Assembly: GCF_011045215.1 (NCBI RefSeq)
Contig: NZ_CP049201.1
Reading direction: 5' to 3' (one strand)
Length of the DNA stretch: 64,000 nucleotides
Origin: Escherichia coli
GTDB lineage: Bacteria > Pseudomonadota > Gammaproteobacteria > Enterobacterales > Enterobacteriaceae
The position numbers were made by a program, and so were the translations under genes. Positions 49,453 through 63,194 of the stretch are shown here, one piece after another. Under the pieces are notes generated by a model. It was not told the DNA's origin. It made no database searches and was given only the letters and a program-made list of their open reading frames with translations. Positions within the stretch are counted from its first letter, which is position 1. The number at the start of each line of letters is the position of its first letter.

Positions 49453-50679
49453 ATGGGAATTAACGAAATCATCATGTACATCATGATGTTCTTTATGCTG
49501 ATAGCTGCCGTAGACAGGATCCTGTCGCAGTTCGGCGGTTCTGCTCGTTTCCTCGGTAAGTTCGGTAAAAGTATCGAAGGATCAGGCGGTCAGTTCGAAG
49601 AAGGCTTTATGGCAATGGGCGCACTGGGCCTGGCGATGGTCGGTATGACCGCGCTGGCACCGGTACTGGCTCACGTACTCGGGCCGGTAATTATCCCGGT
49701 TTACGAAATGCTCGGCGCAAACCCGTCAATGTTCGCCGGAACGCTGCTGGCGTGCGATATGGGCGGCTTCTTCCTCGCCAAAGAGCTGGCGGGCGGCGAC
49801 GTAGCAGCGTGGCTATACTCTGGGTTAATTCTCGGGTCGATGATGGGGCCAACGATTGTGTTTTCCATTCCGGTGGCGCTCGGCATTATCGAACCTTCTG
49901 ACCGTCGTTATCTGGCGCTCGGCGTGCTGGCGGGCATTGTGACCATTCCGATTGGTTGTATCGCTGGTGGTCTGGTAGCTATGTACTCCGGTGTGCAGAT
50001 CAACGGCCAGCCGGTGGAATTCACTTTCGCCCTGATCCTGATGAACATGATCCCGGTGATCATTGTTGCGATTCTGGTGGCGCTGGGGCTGAAATTCATC
50101 CCGGAAAAAATGATCAACGGCTTCCAGATCTTCGCCAAATTCCTCGTTGCATTGATCACCCTCGGTCTTGCCGCTGCGGTAGTGAAATTCCTGCTTGGCT
50201 GGGAACTGATCCCCGGTCTGGATCCTATCTTTATGGCCCCTGGCGATAAACCCGGTGAGGTGATGCGCGCCATTGAAGTTATCGGTTCTATCTCCTGCGT
50301 TCTGTTAGGGGCGTATCCGATGGTGCTGCTGCTGACCCGCTGGTTTGAAAAACCGCTGATGAGCGTCGGTAAAGTGCTGAATATGAACAACATCGCGGCA
50401 GCCGGCATGGTGGCAACGCTTGCCAACAACATCCCGATGTTCGGCATGATGAAGCAGATGGATACCCGCGGCAAAGTCATCAACTGCGCCTTCGCCGTTT
50501 CTGCTGCTTTCGCCCTGGGCGACCACTTAGGGTTCGCCGCTGCCAACATGAATGCCATGATCTTCCCGATGATTGTCGGCAAGTTGATCGGCGGCGTAAC
50601 GGCGATTGGCGTGGCGATGATGCTGGTGCCAAAAGACGACGCGACCGCAGCTAAAACCGAAGCGGAGGCACAATCGTGA
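49453..50679 (+). CDS. eutH: Ethanolamine permease EutH
   Basis: 408-aa polytopic membrane ORF. Confidence 0.85.
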   Translation: MGINEIIMYIMMFFMLIAAVDRILSQFGGSARFLGKFGKSIEGSGGQFEEGFMAMGALGLAMVGMTALAPVLAHVLGPVIIPVYEMLGANPSMFAGTLLACDMGGFFLAKELAGGDVAAWLYSGLILGSMMGPTIVFSIPVALGIIEPSDRRYLALGVLAGIVTIPIGCIAGGLVAMYSGVQINGQPVEFTFALILMNMIPVIIVAILVALGLKFIPEKMINGFQIFAKFLVALITLGLAAAVVKFLLGWELIPGLDPIFMAPGDKPGEVMRAIEVIGSISCVLLGAYPMVLLLTRWFEKPLMSVGKVLNMNNIAAAGMVATLANNIPMFGMMKQMDTRGKVINCAFAVSAAFALGDHLGFAAANMNAMIFPMIVGKLIGGVTAIGVAMMLVPKDDATAAKTEAEAQS

Positions 50680-52079
50680 ACACTCGCCAGCTACTGAGCG
50701 TCGGTATCGATATCGGCACTACCACCACCCAGGTGATTTTCTCCCACCTGGAACTGGTTAACCGTGCGGCGGTGTCGCAGGTGCCGCGCTACGAATTCAT
50801 CAAACGCGAAATTAGCTGGCAAAGCCCGGTGTTCTTTACCCCTGTCGATAAACAGGGTGATTTAAAAGAAGCGGAACTGAAATCGCTGATTTTAGAGCAA
50901 TATCAGGCTGCGGGCATTGCACCGGAAAGCGTTGATTCTGGTGCCATCATCATCACCGGTGAAAGCGCGAAAACCCGCAATGCTCGCCCGGCGGTGATGG
51001 CGCTCTCTCAGTCGCTGGGCGATTTTGTCGTTGCCAGCGCCGGGCCGCACCTCGAATCCGTGATCGCCGGTCACGGAGCCGGGGCACAAACCCTTTCTGA
51101 ACAACGGCTGTGTCGGGTACTGAATATCGACATCGGCGGTGGCACCGCGAACTACGCCCTGTTCGATGCCGGAAAAATCAGCGGCACTGCCTGCCTCAAC
51201 GTCGGTGGTCGCCTGCTGGAAACCGACAGCCAGGGGCGCGTGGTTTACGCTCATAAACCGGGGCAGATGATTGTGGATGAGTGCTTCGGCGCAGGCACCG
51301 ACGCCCGTTCGCTGACCGGCGCGCAGCTGGTGCAGGTTACCCGGCGGATGGCAGAGCTGATTGTCGAAGTGATTGACGGAACGCTCTCGCCGCTCGCGCA
51401 GGCATTGATGCAAACCGGTTTGCTGCCCGCAGGTGTTACGCCCGAAATCATTACGCTTTCTGGCGGCGTGGGCGAATGTTATCGCCACCAGCCCGCCGAC
51501 CCGTTCTGTTTTGCCGATATTGGCCCGCTTCTGGCAACGGCGCTGCATGACCATCCGCGCCTGCGTGAGATGAACGTGCAGTTTCCGGCGCAAACCGTGC
51601 GTGCCACGGTGATTGGCGCGGGGGCACATACCCTTTCGCTCTCTGGCAGCACAATCTGGCTTGAGGGCGTACAACTGCCGCTGCGCAATTTGCCGGTGGC
51701 GATCCCGATTGATGAAACGGATCTGGTGAGTGCCTGGCAACAGGCGCTGATTCAACTGGATCTTGATCCCAAAACTGACGCGTACGTGCTGGCGCTTCCC
51801 GCCTCGCTGCCTGTGCGTTACGCCGCGGTACTGACGGTCATCAACGCGTTGGTCGATTTCGTCGCGCGTTTTCCGAATCCGCATCCCCTGCTGGTGGTGG
51901 CCGGGCAGGACTTTGGTAAAGCTCTGGGCATGTTGTTGCGCCCACAGCTACAACAACTCCCGTTGGCAGTCATTGACGAAGTGATTGTCCGCGCGGGGGA
52001 CTATATCGACATTGGTACGCCTCTTTTTGGCGGATCGGTTGTGCCGGTGACGGTGAAATCACTCGCATTTCCTTCCTGA
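50676..52079 (+). CDS. eutA: Ethanolamine ammonia-lyase reactivase EutA
   Basis: 467-aa ORF, ATGA overlap with eutH; ends at the island junction. Confidence 0.85.
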   Translation: MNTRQLLSVGIDIGTTTTQVIFSHLELVNRAAVSQVPRYEFIKREISWQSPVFFTPVDKQGDLKEAELKSLILEQYQAAGIAPESVDSGAIIITGESAKTRNARPAVMALSQSLGDFVVASAGPHLESVIAGHGAGAQTLSEQRLCRVLNIDIGGGTANYALFDAGKISGTACLNVGGRLLETDSQGRVVYAHKPGQMIVDECFGAGTDARSLTGAQLVQVTRRMAELIVEVIDGTLSPLAQALMQTGLLPAGVTPEIITLSGGVGECYRHQPADPFCFADIGPLLATALHDHPRLREMNVQFPAQTVRATVIGAGAHTLSLSGSTIWLEGVQLPLRNLPVAIPIDETDLVSAWQQALIQLDLDPKTDAYVLALPASLPVRYAAVLTVINALVDFVARFPNPHPLLVVAGQDFGKALGMLLRPQLQQLPLAVIDEVIVRAGDYIDIGTPLFGGSVVPVTVKSLAFPS

Positions 52080-52172: not shown

Positions 52173-52198
52173 AAAACCCGGCGCGGGGCCGGGTGAAC
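52173..52198 (-). terminator. Rho-independent terminator after island gene 52201-52764
   Basis: Minus strand reads ACCCGGCcccgcGCCGGGTTTTG; an identical hairpin recurs at 53821-53843. Confidence 0.55.
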
Positions 52199-52920: not shown

Positions 52921-52948
52921 TCAATAAAAAACCCAGCGCTATGGCTGG
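52921..52948 (-). terminator. Rho-independent terminator after island gene 52995-53723
   Basis: Minus strand CCCAGCcatagcGCTGGG followed by TTTTTTATTG. Confidence 0.55.
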
Positions 52949-53820: not shown

Positions 53821-53843
53821 AAAAACCCGGCGCGGGGCCGGGT
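53821..53843 (-). terminator. Rho-independent terminator (second copy of the 52173 hairpin)
   Basis: Minus strand ACCCGGCcccgcGCCGGGTTTTTGATC, just downstream of gene 53861-54091. Confidence 0.55.
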
Positions 53844-54545: not shown

Positions 54546-54648
54546 CGCGTGTACGTGAAATCTGGAAAATTTGCAGGGTAGTTGTTGAGGGATTTTTCGC
54601 GTAGGAGCGTGAAGGGTCCGCCAGTCATCGCCCTGACGTAGCGGTGAA

Positions 54649-55050
54649 TTACTTGCGAGGCTCACCCATCGGCCAGGCACCTTCATTGCGACGATAACCA
54701 ATCCGGTACTCTTCCGGCAGCGGCAAGCCCTGCTCACGATATGGACGCAGATCGAAGCCAAAAACAGGATCGTCGTCGTAGGCGAGGAATAGCCCGGCAG
54801 GCTCTGCCACGCGTTCGATAATCAGTTCCCCATCTTCAACGAAGAAGATCAGATTATCGCGAAAGTCCGTTACCTCACTGACGTGATAACATTCGGCATG
54901 TGCGTCCAGCCAGGCTTCTCGGTATTCCTGAATCTCGGCTTCTGACCATGTTGAAACAGGACGCTCCCAAATTCCCAGGCTGGATTTGCCCTGGCGGGAG
55001 AATAATTTTGCCTCTTTGCTCTGCTCTGGTTTTCTGTTTAAAAAGCTCAT
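54649..55050 (-). CDS. Hypothetical island protein (133 aa)
   Basis: ORF track; SD ggagaa upstream of ATG; start overlaps a TAA of an upstream open frame (TAATG). Confidence 0.5.
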   Translation of the reverse strand: MSFLNRKPEQSKEAKLFSRQGKSSLGIWERPVSTWSEAEIQEYREAWLDAHAECYHVSEVTDFRDNLIFFVEDGELIIERVAEPAGLFLAYDDDPVFGFDLRPYREQGLPLPEEYRIGYRRNEGAWPMGEPRK

Positions 55051-55186
55051 TATTCTTCTCCTTTGAACGGATTGTTCTTGCTCTCTAATAACTTAGCGCG
55101 ACCCAGTAACGTCCGGGCAAGCGCCTCCGCCTTCCTTAGCCTAAGCCCTGCGTCTTCTGCGTCCAGATCTACATTCCTGATAGCCT

Positions 55187-55450
55187 CTACAGCCTGCTCC
55201 GCTGCGTCCGGGCGTGAATCCACTTAAATATGCCGATATGCTCACGAAAGTCTGGATGCTCATATTGCCAGCGGCAGATTGTTCTGAAGCTCGGCATGTC
55301 AGGCATGTTGCCAATCTCTCTGAGACTATGGCCTTCAGCTACCAGCAAGCAGATTTCTTCAGCGATAGCGACCCCATACTTAGCGCTTTTTCTGCTTAAA
55401 CTTGTGACATCAACAGGTAAGTTATTGATTTCTTTATCATCACCCTTCAT
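55187..55450 (-). CDS. Hypothetical HTH-like island protein (87 aa)
   Basis: ORF track; SLREIGNMPDMPSFRTICRWQ segment is HTH-like; preceded by the 11-bp repeat array. Confidence 0.45.
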   Translation of the reverse strand: MKGDDKEINNLPVDVTSLSRKSAKYGVAIAEEICLLVAEGHSLREIGNMPDMPSFRTICRWQYEHPDFREHIGIFKWIHARTQRSRL

Positions 55451-55522
55451 AATTACCCCCGAATTGATAGCGAATTGATAGCGAATTACCCCGAATTACC
55501 CCCGAATTACCCCCGAATCACC
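55450..55522. repeat. Array of seven 10-11 bp direct repeats (gaattaccccc / gaattgatagc)
   Basis: taattaccccc, gaattgatagc x2, gaattacccc, gaattaccccc x2, gaatcacc, read directly from sequence. Confidence 0.9.
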
Positions 55523-57839: not shown

Positions 57840-58537
57840 GTAATTCGGATTCCTTGAATCAATATCCCATGTGATACTTAATATTATAAAGGGCGGCGGG
57901 CTATGTCGCTATTTTTGCCATAGTGTGACACCATTAATTTATTAACAAAAAGTGCTATTTATTAAATCTTTTTTCGGCAGGTGCAAGAAAAATAATTGCG
58001 ACACGGTAGGGTAGCGGGCGATAATAATCATGTAAGGAGTAGCCACCTTACGCCTCCAAATGTGATCGATAAAAATAATAGTCTCAATTCTTTCTCCCGC
58101 TTCTCGGCGGTTTTTTTGCCTGCAATCACACATCAAAAAAACACATCGAATTGATATGCCTTTAAAACGCAATATAACGCATTTTGACGGCCTTAATTTT
58201 TGCCTATCCACTCGGAAGCGTAAGCCTGTTTTGATTCGTCTGGCGTGGAATGGTGCGGCGGTAATATCAGATCTCAGCGTTCTGTGTGGTGGGATGGAAT
58301 AGCCTGGCAGGATCTGCGTGTGATTTCATTCATCCAACCTTGGATGAATGGTCCGATCTGGTCAGTAGTCCGGCACAAATAAAAAGCGCCTGCGGGCGTA
58401 GCAGACGCTTTGTGTACAGGCTTATCAGTACGGGATGTGCACGAATGATTATACCACCCTCAGAAAAACGTTTGCTTTTGCACTTAAACGGATAAGTGGT
58501 ATTTCTTGGTCTTCATTGGTTTTAGCTCACCATAGGC

Positions 58538-58765
58538 TCATTTAGGTGCGCCCCTGTCGATAATTCGGTACATGTTCTCGGTATATCTCCCGTTAATCAC
58601 CGTTCTGGTAACAACAATCACACCGTTTTCCTCCAGAAAGGCAATGGCCCGCTTCACTCCCTGGCGGCTTACACCGGATAGCTGCGCCAGCCTGTCAATG
58701 GAGATGTTGTATTTGTCCGGCTGGCTTGTCAGGATCTGGAATACCGCTCGTGCTGTTTTCGTCAT
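58538..58765 (-). CDS. Winged-helix/HTH DNA-binding protein (75 aa), candidate island regulator
   Basis: ISIDRLAQLSGVSRQGVKRAIAFLEENGVIV HTH-like segment; divergent from the plus-strand cargo module. Confidence 0.5.
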   Translation of the reverse strand: MTKTARAVFQILTSQPDKYNISIDRLAQLSGVSRQGVKRAIAFLEENGVIVVTRTVINGRYTENMYRIIDRGAPK

Positions 58766-59037
58766 GGCAAAAACTCATTGAAATTGGATACCCTTAGAAC
58801 GCTCTCAAACGCTCCGTAATGCGATGAGAATTTTACCTAAGCAAGTGTAGCTCTTTATTAGTTTTATGATGCCGTAGGCCGATAGAAGGTGCGCTCTCTG
58901 AAGTTTCATTGTCTATCAGTGGTGGGTAATGCTGCCTTTACTATTGGCGTCAAGAAAATCACTGGTGTAGATTGGGCGAATAGTTTACTATTCAAACAAG
59001 GCACAATGGCCTTAGCGGATTGATGTCAGGAGATACC

Positions 59038-59385
59038 ATGTCAAAAATAGTTACTTTGTTTGCGACTAAGCGAGAAGGGAAATCCCTTTCTGTGCGCACT
59101 CGTAAGCCAAAAGCTATGACTGGCTTGCGTAAAACAAATCGTCTGACGCATCTTGACGCGTTAGCGTATCGACTAGGATACCAGTTGGTGCGCGGTAAAA
59201 GTGTCATGTTTCGCTACACTGCTACTCTCGATCACGAAGAAAACAAAGTGATGAATGCGGCCTCGCCTATGGCTGTACCACGAGTAAAAAAAATGACGTT
59301 CACACAAGCGTGTGATTTATCAAAAGATTTATTCGATTCACGAGAAGAACGCTTAAAGAGTGTAAGCTTTGATGGTCCAGAATGA
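59038..59385 (+). CDS. Hypothetical basic protein (115 aa), candidate antitoxin or partner of downstream gene
   Basis: ATG at 59038 with SD aggaga 5 nt upstream; stop overlaps the downstream start by 14 nt; AT-rich. Confidence 0.5.
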   Translation: MSKIVTLFATKREGKSLSVRTRKPKAMTGLRKTNRLTHLDALAYRLGYQLVRGKSVMFRYTATLDHEENKVMNAASPMAVPRVKKMTFTQACDLSKDLFDSREERLKSVSFDGPE

Positions 59386-59887
59386 ATTTATTGGTAAGGT
59401 CTACAGTGATAACAAGTTTAAAACAAACGATGAATTAAAGAGCTTTAAGGATTCGTTTATTTATCATTGGAGATATGGACATCATCCTGATTTTGGAAAG
59501 GATACTCTTTTCCATAAACCCCCGTGTGTATATCCTATCCATTTACGTAAAGTCCATGTAAATATTGGTCTTTATACCAATCAGTACGGCTATAGCGGGA
59601 CAGAACAATGCTGGGATGACTGGTCTACTGGTCGTTATGGTCCCGGTGGTTTCGAAAAAGTTACCCCTACATCTGATGCTTATCTTATATACGCTGTATG
59701 TAAAAATAGAAATGCTGGCGTGTTAGACTTCTGGTTTCCTCCCGCACACAAAAACGCTGAGTTCGAATCCTCTGTACAGTTTGTGGCTGAGATGGCTGAT
59801 AAGTTTTATGAGTCTATCAAGGCGGACCCGATGCCGCGCGATCAGAATCCTTGGCATACGGGGTATATAGTTAAAAAACCAGCCTGA
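59372..59887 (+). CDS. YafO-like toxin-domain candidate (171 aa)
   Basis: FIYHWRYGHHPDFGKDTLF...HLRKVHVN...SDAYLIYAV resembles remembered YafO motifs (FISYKRDG..PDTFGRDALY, HIHL, AHLVYC); family assignment unverified. Confidence 0.45.
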   Translation: MVQNEFIGKVYSDNKFKTNDELKSFKDSFIYHWRYGHHPDFGKDTLFHKPPCVYPIHLRKVHVNIGLYTNQYGYSGTEQCWDDWSTGRYGPGGFEKVTPTSDAYLIYAVCKNRNAGVLDFWFPPAHKNAEFESSVQFVAEMADKFYESIKADPMPRDQNPWHTGYIVKKPA

Positions 59888-60438
59888 TCCACGCAATACT
59901 GATTGTTTTTGGCCTTGTATGGTGTGGTCTGATTTGAGGCAAAATTATTTAATCCCTTAAAAAACTAACTTCAAAAGACTAAAACCAGGGGGATGGTCCC
60001 TCTCGCTCCGCTCCAGGTACCATCCCTGTCGGGATGGGTTTATTGTAGAGTTAAAATTAATTACTCACATCGTCACACCTTGCGAAAGTTTTGCTCAATT
60101 ATCATTCAAACATAGCACAAAAAATATTCGATTTAGTTAGTGTGCACTGACTTTTTTATCAATTTACTTTCATTCGAAAGTCATGGGTTAAATATTAATC
60201 ATCTGGCTGTGGCACGCATGGATTCACCGAGGGTATTTTGGACCATTTGGTCAAAATTCATAAGTACATGATTTCATGGTGATTTATTTTTCTGTATCTT
60301 GCTTTCATTCGAAAGTGGAAACGAAGAATTGGCAATTTATTGATTCAGATCATTGACATTGCATATTTGTGGCGGTTGTCACGGTTGTTTTTTGAGCGCT
60401 TCAACCGTCGATATTGAGTATAAACCCGGCCTTATAGT

Positions 60439-61644
60439 TCACGGTTCAAGTGGATTACCGTCACCAGCCAATATTGAATCAATAGCGTCGGCGTAATCCT
60501 GCATCATTGCTCGCCGTTGCTTCAGGTAGGCCGCCTGGTTATAAACGCCGCGCACACCTTTCGGGACGTGGGCCAATTGGATTTCGATCCAGTCTGGTGA
60601 GTATCTGCCAGACTCATTAAGCGCCGTTGAAAAGGTGGTCCGCCAGCCATGACCAGTGGCAATGGATTTATAGCCGATCCTCTCAAGCGCCTTCAGTATC
60701 GCGCTGGCTGAAAGTGGCTTATCCATGAATCGACCAGGGAAGACGAAAGCACTGTATCCGCTCCTTGTAAACTGGTCCTGTAATAGCTCCACCGCCTGCC
60801 GTGATAGCGGGACCACATGCGGGCGGCGGGCCTTCATGACTTCAGCGGGCAATGTGATTGTTGCGTCCTCCAGGTTTATCCATTCCCAACGGCACAAACG
60901 CAGTTCTGCGGTCCTTAATGCCGTTAATATAAGCAAACGTATTGCCGTCTGAATCTGGACGCTCCCGGCCCTCTCAAGGGCTTTGTAGAAGGCCGGAATT
61001 TCACTAATCGGTATCCACGCGTTGTGACCAGGTCGGCGGGCCTTCAGTGCCGTATCAAGATCTGCAACCGGATTCCTCGTTACCAGTTCGGTGATAACGG
61101 CAAACTTGAAGATCTCACCGATGCGCTGGCGTAGCTTGCGGGCCTGCTCCGGTGCGGTACGTTCTTTCTTCTGGAGTAATGCCAGCACGTCACGGGCGGT
61201 TATATCGACAATCGACCGCTTGCCAAGTACCGGATAGACGTCTTTTTCTAGGGCCGATCTGACCTGTTTTGCATAGGATTCCGACCACCCTCCAACCCTA
61301 GTAGCAAACCAGTCTTCCGCCACCTTCTTAAATCCTGCCGCCATGTTGAGCGCATCAATGGCTTTTTCCTTGCGGGCTTGTTCCACTGGGTTAATTCCAT
61401 TGGCAATAAGGGATCTGCTCTCCGTGGCGCGCCTGCGTGCTTCTTTGAGTGTGATTAGCGGGTAAACACCAATAGCCTGCAAAAACTCTCGTTTATTCAA
61501 CCAATACCTGAATCGCCAGTATTTCGAACCGTTGGGATGCACCAGCAAAAACAGCCCCGGCGTCAGTGAATCGGTGAGTTTATAGGGCTTGTCCTGCGGC
61601 TGTGCGGCGTCTATGGCCTTTGCTGTGAGTGGTGTCTTGCTCAA
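60439..61644 (-). CDS. intZ: P4-type tyrosine integrase
   Basis: 401-aa ORF; N-terminal arm-binding-like domain plus catalytic region (HGWRTT...RGVYN); at the island edge next to eutB as for CPZ-55 IntZ. Confidence 0.85.
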   Translation of the reverse strand: MSKTPLTAKAIDAAQPQDKPYKLTDSLTPGLFLLVHPNGSKYWRFRYWLNKREFLQAIGVYPLITLKEARRRATESRSLIANGINPVEQARKEKAIDALNMAAGFKKVAEDWFATRVGGWSESYAKQVRSALEKDVYPVLGKRSIVDITARDVLALLQKKERTAPEQARKLRQRIGEIFKFAVITELVTRNPVADLDTALKARRPGHNAWIPISEIPAFYKALERAGSVQIQTAIRLLILTALRTAELRLCRWEWINLEDATITLPAEVMKARRPHVVPLSRQAVELLQDQFTRSGYSAFVFPGRFMDKPLSASAILKALERIGYKSIATGHGWRTTFSTALNESGRYSPDWIEIQLAHVPKGVRGVYNQAAYLKQRRAMMQDYADAIDSILAGDGNPLEP

Positions 61645-61832
61645 AACCGGATACCTTGATTTAACGACTGGATAACCCCGATCATGTATCCGGCGCGTTC
61701 GGTTGCGTTCGGCAGGATAAGTAACGGGCGTATTAAGTGGAACACCTTACAGGACAAGGGCTAACGATGAAATAGAATTGTTTGCAGGCTGTGAGAAATG
61801 TTAATCGTCACTTCTTCCTGAGGGAACGACTT

Positions 61833-63194
61833 ATGAAACTAAAGACCACATTGTTCGGCAATGTATATCAGTTTAAGGATGTAAAAGAGGTGCTGGCTAA
61901 AGCCAACGAACTGCGTTCGGGGGATGTGCTGGCGGGCGTCGCAGCGGCAAGCTCACAGGAGCGCGTGGCGGCAAAGCAGGTGTTGTCGGAAATGACCGTA
62001 GCGGACATCCGCAATAATCCGGTGATTGCCTATGAAGATGACTGCGTGACGCGGCTGATTCAGGACGATGTTAACGAAACGGCCTACAACCAGATTAAAA
62101 ACTGGAGCATCAGCGAACTGCGTGAGTATGTGCTGAGCGATGAAACCAGCGTGGACGACATTGCCTTTACCCGCAAAGGGCTGACCTCGGAAGTGGTCGC
62201 GGCGGTAGCGAAGATTTGCTCCAACGCGGACCTGATCTACGGCGCGAAGAAAATGCCGGTAATCAAAAAGGCCAATACCACCATCGGTATTCCGGGCACC
62301 TTCAGCGCCCGTTTGCAGCCAAATGACACTCGTGACGACGTGCAAAGTATCGCCGCGCAAATCTACGAAGGGCTTTCCTTCGGGGTGGGCGATGCGGTGA
62401 TCGGCGTTAACCCGGTGACTGACGACGTGGAAAACTTAAGCCGCGTGCTGGATACCATTTATGGCGTGATCGACAAATTCAACATCCCAACTCAGGGCTG
62501 CGTACTGGCGCACGTCACCACTCAGATCGAAGCGATTCGTCGTGGCGCACCAGGCGGGCTGATTTTCCAGAGTATCTGTGGCAGTGAAAAAGGGCTGAAA
62601 GAGTTTGGCGTGGAACTTGCGATGCTCGACGAAGCGCGCGCAGTGGGTGCAGAGTTCAACCGTATCGCCGGGGAAAACTGCCTCTACTTCGAAACCGGAC
62701 AAGGTTCAGCGCTATCCGCTGGCGCTAACTTCGGCGCAGACCAGGTGACGATGGAAGCACGTAACTATGGGCTGGCGCGTCATTACGATCCGTTTATCGT
62801 CAACACCGTGGTCGGCTTTATTGGGCCGGAGTATCTCTACAACGACCGCCAGATTATCCGTGCGGGCTTAGAAGATCACTTTATGGGCAAGCTGAGCGGC
62901 ATCTCTATGGGCTGTGACTGCTGTTACACCAACCACGCTGACGCTGACCAGAACCTCAACGAAAACCTGATGATCCTGCTCGCCACCGCAGGCTGCAACT
63001 ACATCATGGGGATGCCGTTGGGCGATGACATCATGCTCAACTACCAGACCACGGCCTTCCACGACACTGCCACTGTGCGTCAGTTACTCAACCTGCGCCC
63101 GTCACCGGAGTTTGAACGCTGGCTGGAAAGCATGGGCATTATGGCAAACGGTCGCTTGACCAAACGGGCGGGCGATCCGTCACTGTTCTTCTGA
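61833..63194 (+). CDS. eutB: Ethanolamine ammonia-lyase large subunit EutB
   Basis: ATG at 61833 gives MKLKTTLFGNVYQFKDVKEVLAKANE (453 aa); SD gaggga. Confidence 0.9.
   Translation: MKLKTTLFGNVYQFKDVKEVLAKANELRSGDVLAGVAAASSQERVAAKQVLSEMTVADIRNNPVIAYEDDCVTRLIQDDVNETAYNQIKNWSISELREYVLSDETSVDDIAFTRKGLTSEVVAAVAKICSNADLIYGAKKMPVIKKANTTIGIPGTFSARLQPNDTRDDVQSIAAQIYEGLSFGVGDAVIGVNPVTDDVENLSRVLDTIYGVIDKFNIPTQGCVLAHVTTQIEAIRRGAPGGLIFQSICGSEKGLKEFGVELAMLDEARAVGAEFNRIAGENCLYFETGQGSALSAGANFGADQVTMEARNYGLARHYDPFIVNTVVGFIGPEYLYNDRQIIRAGLEDHFMGKLSGISMGCDCCYTNHADADQNLNENLMILLATAGCNYIMGMPLGDDIMLNYQTTAFHDTATVRQLLNLRPSPEFERWLESMGIMANGRLTKRAGDPSLFF

What the first reader, a model, noticed from the sequence alone, without database searches (positions are those of the whole stretch)
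59038..59887. Integrase-proximal AT-rich two-gene module with a YafO-like toxin candidate and an unrelated upstream partner
The only plus-strand genes in the island form an overlapping pair (14-nt stop/start overlap) wedged between the integrase and a divergent HTH gene. Gene 2 carries motifs that I recall as diagnostic of YafO-family ribosome-dependent mRNA interferases. Gene 1 (115 aa, very basic N-terminus, acidic C-terminus) does not resemble the canonical YafN antitoxin. The pair is flanked by AT-rich non-coding DNA with repeats (tttactatt twice upstream; a GGGATGGT/ACCATCCC hairpin about 100 nt downstream). Cargo slots next to P4-type integrases are known hotspots for toxin-antitoxin and anti-phage systems, so this may be an undescribed pairing of a YafO-like toxin with a novel antitoxin or an abortive-infection module.
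Basis: partly seen in the sequence, partly recalled or inferred. Interest (0 to 1): 0.8.

Follow-up and report, generated by a model that had tools for sequence, protein, structure and literature searches.

The report
Long YafO toxin with new antitoxin
Next to the integrase of a decayed E. coli island sits an intact two-gene toxin-antitoxin cassette: a long relative of the YafO RNase toxin, always paired with a previously unnamed partner protein; this is a new variant of a familiar system, not a new kind.

Summary
Two overlapping plus-strand genes (59038-59385 and 59372-59887, 14-nt overlap) lie in AT-rich DNA between a P4-type integrase and an HTH gene, in a CPZ-55-type island between eutA and eutB.

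Gene 2 is a real but distant YafO relative. On its own it only scores E 0.009 against Pfam YafO_toxin. Profile-profile comparison with canonical YafO gives 98.7% probability (E 3e-16). A confident AlphaFold model (pLDDT 96) matches RelE/HigB/YoeB/YafQ toxins in the PDB and YafO proteins in AFDB. It is a rare long form of 171 aa.

Gene 1 matches no known family and is unrelated to YafN. In all 52 related loci examined, an upstream partner overlaps the toxin start by 11 or 14 nt. Only the partner's last ~36 residues are conserved; they are a predicted helix and co-diverge with the toxin. The N-terminal parts fall into nine unrelated classes.

The cassette (59002-59930) is swappable cargo. The flanking repeats and the hairpin belong to the conserved slot, which carries other cargo in other strains.

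Most likely this is a type II toxin-antitoxin module with a new modular antitoxin. Toxicity, neutralisation and any anti-phage role are untested. RefSeq already labels gene 2 as a YafO family toxin.

The parts
59038..59385 (+). Gene 1: a 115-aa candidate antitoxin. It has a basic, mostly low-confidence N-terminal part and a conserved C-terminal ~36 residues (about nt 59275-59382) with a predicted helix at residues 88-108.
   Evidence: ORF and Shine-Dalgarno sequence. No Pfam, NCBIfam, PHROG, PADLOC or PDB-sequence match. AF2: pLDDT 64 overall, 83-89 over the C-terminal helix. The C-terminal motif is conserved in all partners.
59372..59887 (+). Gene 2: a 171-aa long-form YafO-family toxin with a RelE-type fold; presumed endoribonuclease.
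59372..59385 (+). 14-nt stop/start overlap between the two genes; probable translational coupling.
   Evidence: Sequence. An overlap of 11 or 14 nt is kept in all 52 related loci.
59002..59930 (+). Exchangeable cargo cassette: gene 1 plus gene 2, with 36 nt upstream and ~43 nt downstream.
   Evidence: Homology with island L064, which carries a different cassette, ends at 59001 and resumes at 59931.
58766..59001 (+). Conserved left flank of the slot, the likely promoter region. It contains TTTACTATT at 58937-58945 and 58984-58992. It is backbone DNA, not part of the cassette.
   Evidence: Shared, including both repeats, upstream of a different cassette in L064: 94% identity over the blastn segment 58181-59001 and near-identical through window 59001 in the alignment. 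No strict sigma-70 match was found.
59990..60037 (.). Stem-loops (GGGATGGT../..ACCATCCC and CCATCCC-TGTC-GGGATGG) in the conserved right flank of the slot. Possibly a terminator between the convergent gene 2 and the integrase gene.
   Evidence: Conserved in L064 and L063, which carry other cargo.
58538..58765 (-). Divergent 75-aa HTH gene. It is island backbone and not an obligatory part of the module.
   Evidence: An identical protein sits beside a different cassette in L064. It is absent in L066 and IS1-disrupted in L076 with the pair intact.
60439..61644 (-). P4-type (IntZ-like) tyrosine integrase, which defines the island end next to eutB.
   Evidence: Arm-DNA-bind_3 + Phage_int_M + Phage_integrase domains. 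PGAP gene name intZ in relatives.

Best explanation
A bicistronic type II toxin-antitoxin cassette, carried as swappable cargo in the integrase-proximal slot of a decayed CPZ-55-type integrative element.

Gene 2 is a long-form member of the YafO branch of the RelE/ParE superfamily. When free, it would cleave mRNA and arrest translation. Whether that needs the ribosome is unsettled even for YafO itself.

Gene 1 is its cognate antitoxin. Its C-terminal ~36 residues (a short extended segment plus an amphipathic helix) bind and block the toxin. The basic, poorly ordered N-terminal part is a replaceable module of unknown role, possibly nucleic-acid binding, regulation or trigger sensing.

The two genes are translationally coupled through the 14-nt overlap and are probably transcribed from a promoter that belongs to the slot.

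Shown here: homology and fold of gene 2; strict pairing; the modular architecture of the partner; and the cassette boundaries.

Inferred: RNase activity, toxicity, neutralisation by the C-terminal helix, and the biological role. The role could be stabilising the element, or killing or arresting the host on infection by a competing phage.
For: Gene 2:
- hhalign of the family against canonical YafO gives 98.7% probability, E 3e-16, 122 columns, and 90.6% with the 13 closest homologues.
- BLASTP against K-12 YafO gives 25% identity over 135 aa.
- The shared motifs are FG(K/R)D, (H/K)xH, TSDxxL(I/V)Y and (A/P)HK.
- AF2 gives pLDDT 96.4 and pTM 0.90.
- AFDB50 neighbours are YafO toxins.

Pairing:
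- 52 of 52 loci (37 distinct pairs) have an upstream partner overlapping by 11 or 14 nt.
- More distant members also have short basic upstream partners. Two overlap the toxin start (L067, L069); the L070 candidate lies 142 nt upstream.
- Distances between partner C-terminal 36-residue segments track toxin distances (Pearson 0.96; Mantel 0 of 2000), while the N-terminal parts form 9 unrelated classes.
- One N-terminal class is found with two different C-terminus/toxin clades.

Gene 1 on its own is mostly low-confidence apart from a confident C-terminal helix, as expected of a type II antitoxin.

The gene order, antitoxin first, matches YafN-YafO (PMC11980606 Table 1).

The cassette stays intact while the surrounding island has lost 2.5 kb and carries a frameshifted gene.
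Against: - No experiment shows toxicity or rescue.
- Gene 2 alone is below a convincing Pfam score (16.5 bits), and no NCBIfam model hits it.
- Gene 1 has no recognisable DNA-binding domain.
- The upstream repeats cannot be gene 1's own operator, because they are shared with a cassette that encodes an unrelated partner. Classical autoregulation is therefore unsupported.
- Co-divergence of adjacent segments is expected from linkage alone.
- No complex model could be made with the tools available.
- Neither protein matches a PADLOC defence model.
Confidence: 0.7

Rival explanations
1. The pair is a phage or satellite 'moron' used offensively, not a toxin-antitoxin pair. Gene 2 would be an RNase deployed during the element's own lytic or induction cycle to shut off host or competitor gene expression. 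Gene 1 would be a co-factor, chaperone or targeting subunit rather than an inhibitor.
For: Homologues lie in accessory regions of ~40-kb prophages, between tail, tail-spike and lysis genes and next to Bro-N genes, and in isolated phages EC.W1-9 and TL-2011b. The hypervariable N-terminal parts of the partner could be targeting modules.
Against: The architecture is the classical antitoxin-toxin one: a small upstream gene, translational coupling, and a disordered partner with one conserved terminal helix. The module persists intact in a decayed island that can no longer make particles, and in islands of differing backbone.
Confidence: 0.1
2. Gene 2 is a catalytically dead or non-toxic RelE-fold protein, and the pair is a neutral remnant travelling with a cryptic element.
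For: The island is degraded. The family is rare: 73 representative clusters among 1.84 billion. The Pfam score is marginal. K-12 YafO itself gave weak cleavage in transcriptome-wide mapping (bioRxiv 10.1101/2021.07.08.451724).
Against: Both ORFs are intact and conserved across Escherichia, Klebsiella, Cronobacter, Serratia, Enterobacter, Yersinia and beyond. Residues G42, H62 and H126 are invariant and D44, S101 and Y107 nearly invariant, and they align with YafO's own invariant residues. The partner is retained in every locus, which is hard to explain if the downstream protein were harmless.
Confidence: 0.1
3. The real regulatory or neutralising partner is the divergent HTH protein (58538-58765), making a three-gene unit, with gene 1 an accessory.
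For: The HTH gene is divergently adjacent and shares the intergenic region that holds the TTTACTATT repeats. The same HTH gene and promoter region accompany a second YafO-type cassette in L064.
Against: The pair occurs intact without the HTH gene (L066) and with an IS1-disrupted HTH gene (L076). Prophage homologues have no such neighbour.
Confidence: 0.05

Closest known systems
YafN-YafO type II toxin-antitoxin system of E. coli K-12 (dinB-yafN-yafO-yafP operon; Pfam PF13957 YafO_toxin with a Phd/YefM antitoxin)
   Same: The toxin is homologous over essentially the whole YafO length, and the conserved motifs align with YafO's invariant residues. The antitoxin-first gene order and the stop/start overlap or abutment are also shared.
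   Different: The toxin is ~40 residues longer (171 against 132 aa), with a ~20-25-residue insertion (about residues 68-90, holding the invariant C80, W81 and W84) and a C-terminal extension. The partner is not a Phd/YefM protein and has no detectable similarity to YafN. The module sits in mobile-element cargo, not in the SOS-regulated dinB operon.
RelE/ParE-superfamily (BECR-fold) mRNA interferases: HigB2, HigB1, RelE, YoeB, YafQ
   Different: Sequence identity is 5-16%, with extra helices and an insertion. The catalytic residues are not mapped here. The partner does not belong to any of the antitoxin families of those toxins.
Cargo hotspots of phage satellites and prophages that hold toxin-antitoxin and anti-phage systems (P4-like and PICI-type elements; from my own knowledge of the literature, not re-read here)
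   Same: An integrase-proximal slot with conserved flanks holds different cargo in different strains: this pair, a second YafO-type pair, yffL, or small hypotheticals.
   Different: No defence phenotype is known for this pair and no PADLOC model matches it. Apart from the integrase type, the element was not shown to be a P4 or PICI satellite.
Modular type II antitoxins and hyperpromiscuous antitoxin domains (e.g. Panacea/SocA)
   Same: The partner is a two-part protein in which one part is tied to the toxin and the other is exchanged by recombination.
   Different: Here the conserved part is the short toxin-proximal C-terminal helix, and the exchanged parts are nine unrelated N-terminal regions with no recognised domain. 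Panacea is the reverse: one conserved domain serving many toxins.

Membership tests
YafO toxin family (Pfam PF13957) | Significant match of the protein to the family HMM | tested here: inconclusive
   Gene 2 alone scores E 0.0093, 16.5 bits, covering model positions 13-100 of 101. Among 13 homologues, 8 match at E<=0.1 and 2 at E<=0.001, and no other family matches. No NCBIfam model hits.
YafO toxin family (Pfam PF13957) | Homology to bona fide YafO at profile level over the whole domain | tested here: met
   hhalign of A3 against A2 gives 98.7% probability, E 3e-16, 122 columns, covering YafO 4-132. A1 against A2 gives 90.6%. BLASTP gives a pairwise E of 3e-5.
YafO toxin family (Pfam PF13957) | Conserved motif residues (FGRD, HxH, TSD..LVY, HK) | tested here: met
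   Gene 2 has F41-G42-K43-D44, K60/H62, T100-S101-D102...Y107 and A125-H126-K127. These align with the YafO invariant residues F38/R40, H60/H62, T80, Y88 and H109, and with the near-invariant G39 and D41.
YafO toxin family (Pfam PF13957) | Upstream Phd/YefM-type antitoxin YafN | tested here: not met
   Canonical YafO homologues all have a PhdYeFM gene upstream. Gene 1 has no Pfam hit and no similarity to YafN.
YafO toxin family (Pfam PF13957) | mRNA cleavage and growth arrest on expression | not testable with these tools
   This needs expression and RNase assays.
RelE/ParE (BECR-fold) superfamily | RelE-type alpha/beta fold | tested here: met
Type II toxin-antitoxin module | Two small adjacent co-oriented genes, coupled, that always occur together | tested here: met
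   14-nt overlap. 52 of 52 related loci have the partner, with an 11- or 14-nt overlap. The C-terminus co-diverges with the toxin.
Type II toxin-antitoxin module | Antitoxin binds and neutralises the toxin | not testable with these tools
   Only indirect support: a conserved C-terminal helix in an otherwise low-confidence protein. No complex prediction was possible.
Type II toxin-antitoxin module | Antitoxin carries a DNA-binding domain and autoregulates the operon | tested here: inconclusive
   No DNA-binding domain was detected in any of the partner classes. The upstream region with the repeats is slot DNA shared with an unrelated cassette.
Known anti-phage defence systems (PADLOC-DB v2) | Match of either protein to a defence-system model | tested here: not met
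   No families at E<=1 for either protein.

The most novel reading that the evidence does not exclude
The partner is not just an antitoxin but a modular sensor. On this reading its conserved C-terminal helix holds a YafO-type RNase in check. Its hypervariable N-terminal module (at least nine unrelated classes on the same toxin scaffold, shuffled by recombination in prophage and satellite cargo slots) recognises a specific trigger from a competing phage. The family would then be an uncatalogued, trigger-programmable abortive-infection system that mobile elements use against rivals.
Probability: 0.15. Interest if true: 0.7.

Novelty: new variant of a known kind. Interest (0 to 1): 0.4.

Why it matters
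This defines a distinct long-form branch of the little-studied YafO toxins, which has no solved structure or described partner. It also supplies that branch's missing partner: a family currently annotated only as 'hypothetical protein' and absent from Pfam and NCBIfam.

The partner's architecture gives a clean, testable prediction of which part neutralises the toxin. A ~36-residue C-terminal segment is tied to the toxin, while the N-terminal modules are freely exchanged.

The locus also shows a cassette-exchange slot with conserved flanks beside IntZ-type integrases in E. coli.

If the variable modules turn out to sense phage triggers, the family would add to the toxin-antitoxin-based immune systems. 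If not, it is a routine addiction module.

Tried and rejected
- NCBIfam and PADLOC scans of both proteins found nothing useful.
- PDB sequence searches with both family profiles gave only chance-level hits.
- The structure of gene 1 was too uncertain (pLDDT 64, pTM 0.28) for a fold search, so none was run on it.
- I tested whether the partner's C-terminal helix is a diverged YafN C-terminus. hhalign against one YafN placed the helix against the YafN C-terminus, at 0.2% probability. Against four YafN sequences the best match lay elsewhere, at 0.1% probability. The idea was rejected as unsupported.
- I tested whether TTTACTATT is gene 1's operator. Rejected: the repeats are not conserved upstream of the same partner class in other species, and they are shared with a cassette that encodes an unrelated partner.
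- I tested whether the hairpin is an unusual RNA element. Its z-score is -1.2 and there is no Rfam match in 58400-60500.
- I tested whether the HTH gene is part of the module. Rejected.
- Literature searches for YafO with phage defence, anti-phage, satellite, NetFlax and 'YafO-like', and for CPZ-55 with PICI, found no description of this pair.

Full report
**What is in the sequence**

The window is E. coli. Its eut flanks match nearly all of 5,426 complete E. coli genomes at >=99% identity. Between eutA (50676-52079) and eutB (61782-63194) lies a ~9.6-kb island. It ends in a tyrosine integrase (60439-61644, minus strand) with the P4-type domain set Arm-DNA-bind_3 + Phage_int_M + Phage_integrase. 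PGAP names that integrase intZ in relatives. This is the position of the intZ/yffL-type element.

Two plus-strand ORFs lie between the integrase and a divergent 75-aa HTH gene:
- Gene 1 is 59038-59385 (115 aa) and has an AGGAGA Shine-Dalgarno sequence at 59028-59033.
- Gene 2 is 59372-59887 (171 aa). The two overlap by 14 nt.

The region is AT-rich. GC is 0.41-0.43 in the genes and 0.38-0.43 in the flanks, against 0.526 for the window.

**Gene 2**

On its own it hits only Pfam YafO_toxin, and weakly: E 0.0093, 16.5 bits. No NCBIfam or PADLOC model matches. It matches phrog_1651 (unknown function) at 1e-42. RefSeq already labels identical proteins 'type II toxin-antitoxin system YafO family toxin'.

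I tested the relationship independently.
- Eight of 13 homologues hit YafO_toxin at E<=0.1, the best at 2e-4, and no other family matches.
- BLASTP against K-12 YafO aligns 135 residues at 25% identity.
- hhalign of the 13 closest homologues against a canonical YafO alignment gives 90.6% probability.
- With 58 family members the probability is 98.7%, E 3e-16, over 122 columns spanning YafO residues 4-132.

The residues conserved in the long family are G42, H62 and H126 (invariant) and D44, S101 and Y107 (nearly invariant). They align with YafO's own conserved FGRD, HxH, TSD..LVY and HK motifs.

Gene 2 is therefore a true but divergent YafO relative. It is a long form, 171 aa against 132, with an insertion of about 20-25 residues and a C-terminal extension.

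The family is rare. An exhaustive search of 1.84 billion representative proteins gave 73 at E<=1e-3. Three of 50,697 phage records carry it, and 56 of 5,426 complete E. coli genomes match the window locus.

**Gene 1**

It matches nothing in Pfam, NCBIfam, PHROGs, PADLOC or PDB sequences. It has no similarity to YafN. BLASTP finds no alignment, and hhalign of the partner family against one or four YafN sequences gives <1% probability. By contrast, three diverse canonical short YafO genes, as well as K-12 yafO, sit directly behind a Phd/YefM-type gene.

AlphaFold2 finds gene 1 mostly low-confidence (pLDDT 64, pTM 0.28), with one confident element: a C-terminal helix at residues 88-108.

**Co-occurrence and architecture**

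I collected 52 loci that encode a relative of gene 2. They comprise 44 IMG/VR viral contigs, prophages or elements of Klebsiella, E. coli, Serratia, Yersinia and Enterobacter, and the window itself. They make 37 distinct protein pairs.

Every locus has an upstream co-oriented ORF of about 108-190 aa that overlaps the toxin start by 11 or 14 nt.

Only the last ~36 residues of these partners are alignable. The motif resembles PRVKKM(S/T)FxEAxxLSRxLxxSRxERLxxxxFDGPE, with variants ending YDDAE, FDVFE or FDECE. Pairwise distances in this segment track those of the toxin (Pearson 0.96; Mantel 0 of 2000 permutations). The N-terminal parts fall into nine classes with no BLASTP similarity to one another. 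None of the classes has a Pfam domain. Some match only PHROGs of unknown function.

One N-terminal class is found fused to two different C-terminus/toxin clades. This shows recombination between the N-terminal module and the unit formed by the C-terminal segment plus the toxin.

More distant long-form members also have short basic upstream partners: 60 and 84 aa overlapping the toxin start, and a 65-aa candidate that ends 142 nt upstream. Two of them, L067 and L069, show a similar terminal pattern.

Linkage alone would produce co-divergence. The contrast with the shuffled N-termini is the informative part.

**The module is a cassette in a conserved slot**

I compared the window with related intZ islands. 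Homology with strain ampC_0069 (L064) runs to window position 59001 and resumes at 59931.

Between those points L064 carries a different cassette. It has a 48-aa basic ORF overlapping by 16 nt a 159-aa protein that is another YafO relative: hhalign 80% against canonical YafO, and only a marginal BLASTP match to gene 2. Other islands carry yffL or small hypothetical genes in the slot.

The left flank, with both TTTACTATT copies, is nearly identical in L064. The right flank, with the stem-loops at 59990-60037, is conserved in L064 and in L063, which carries no YafO gene in the slot. So the repeats and the hairpin are slot features, not features of the toxin-antitoxin pair. They are probably a promoter region on the left and a terminator between convergent genes on the right.

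The HTH gene is also backbone. It is absent in L066 and IS1-disrupted in L076, with the pair intact in both.

The island in the window is decayed relative to a 12.5-kb relative inserted in yghO (L001). It has lost ~2.5 kb, including a 2.2-kb gene, and its terminase-small-like gene is frameshifted near 55208. The cassette itself is intact.

**Mechanism**

The best-supported reading is a type II toxin-antitoxin module:
- Gene 2 is a YafO-type endoribonuclease.
- Gene 1 neutralises it through the conserved C-terminal segment.
- Expression is coupled through the overlap.
- The N-terminal module is replaceable and of unknown role.

YafO has been described as a ribosome-dependent mRNA interferase, but transcriptome-wide mapping questioned that dependence (PMC11980606; bioRxiv 10.1101/2021.07.08.451724). 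I therefore do not commit to ribosome dependence.

The biological role is inferred only from context. The pair sits in the accessory regions of prophages next to tail, Bro-N and lysis genes, in a satellite-type island slot, and once beside a Panacea-domain gene. That context fits either stabilisation of the element or defence against competing phages. No known defence model matches.

**Novelty and verdict**

The toxin's family assignment is already made automatically in RefSeq. Six searches of a library of about 8 million open-access papers and preprints found no description of three things:
- the long-form branch as a distinct group;
- its obligatory non-YafN partner with a conserved C-terminal helix and shuffled N-terminal modules;
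- the cassette-exchange slot.

This is a new variant of a known kind, of moderate interest.

Noticed in passing
L064:10726-11336 (E. coli ampC_0069; same slot as window 59002-59930): The same integrase-proximal slot, with the same promoter-side and terminator-side flanks, carries a different cassette. A 48-aa very basic ORF overlaps by 16 nt a 159-aa second YafO-type protein (hhalign 80% against canonical YafO). PGAP annotates only the toxin.
   Followed up: partly
window 60164-60181 and 60299-60316: Two copies, 135 nt apart, of an 18-nt element TT(A/G)CTTTCATTCGAAAGT containing the palindrome CTTTC-ATTC-GAAAG. They lie in the 550-bp AT-rich (GC 0.377) non-coding stretch between gene 2 and the 3' end of the integrase gene. 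Function unknown.
   Followed up: no
window 54617-54626 and 55050-55450, compared with L001:5423-7913 and L001:8347-8748: The island in the window is decayed relative to its 12.5-kb relative. About 2.5 kb is missing, including a 2.2-kb gene variously annotated as hypothetical, coiled-coil or tape measure. The terminase-small-like gene is split by a frameshift near 55208.
   Followed up: yes
L001 (E. coli CFIAFB20180540, NZ_CM143725.1 776644-789140): A closely related island, with the TA locus 99% identical, is integrated inside yghO instead of between eutA and eutB. This IntZ-type element family therefore uses at least two chromosomal sites.
   Followed up: partly
window 55451-55519: Three copies of AATTACCCCCGAAT(T/C), two exact, clustered just upstream of the terminase-small-like gene on the minus strand. 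They may be operator or iteron-like sites of the island.
   Followed up: no
window 52173-52194 and 53822-53843: Two exact 22-nt copies of AAAACCCGGCGCGGGGCCGGGT, a GC-rich hairpin-forming sequence, lie 1.65 kb apart inside the island. A 68% copy lies at 52928.
   Followed up: no
L018-L023, about 30-80 nt upstream of the partner gene start: Prophage loci of other species that carry the same N-terminal class of partner as the window mostly share a palindrome TTACC..GGTAA. Most also share a second palindrome, TCAAC....GTTGA. Both lie between a promoter-like region and the start codon, and both are absent from the window's upstream region. They could be operators or 5'-UTR hairpins.
   Followed up: no
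L076:410-1343 (E. coli Ec-RL2-1X): An IS1A insertion truncates the divergent HTH gene next to an intact copy of the pair.
   Followed up: yes
L012:2335-3227 (Serratia fonticola element): Near the Serratia homologue of the pair there is a SocA_Panacea-domain gene with a 144-aa neighbour, and there are AlpA-like genes. This suggests a cluster of toxin-antitoxin-type cargo in that element.
   Followed up: no
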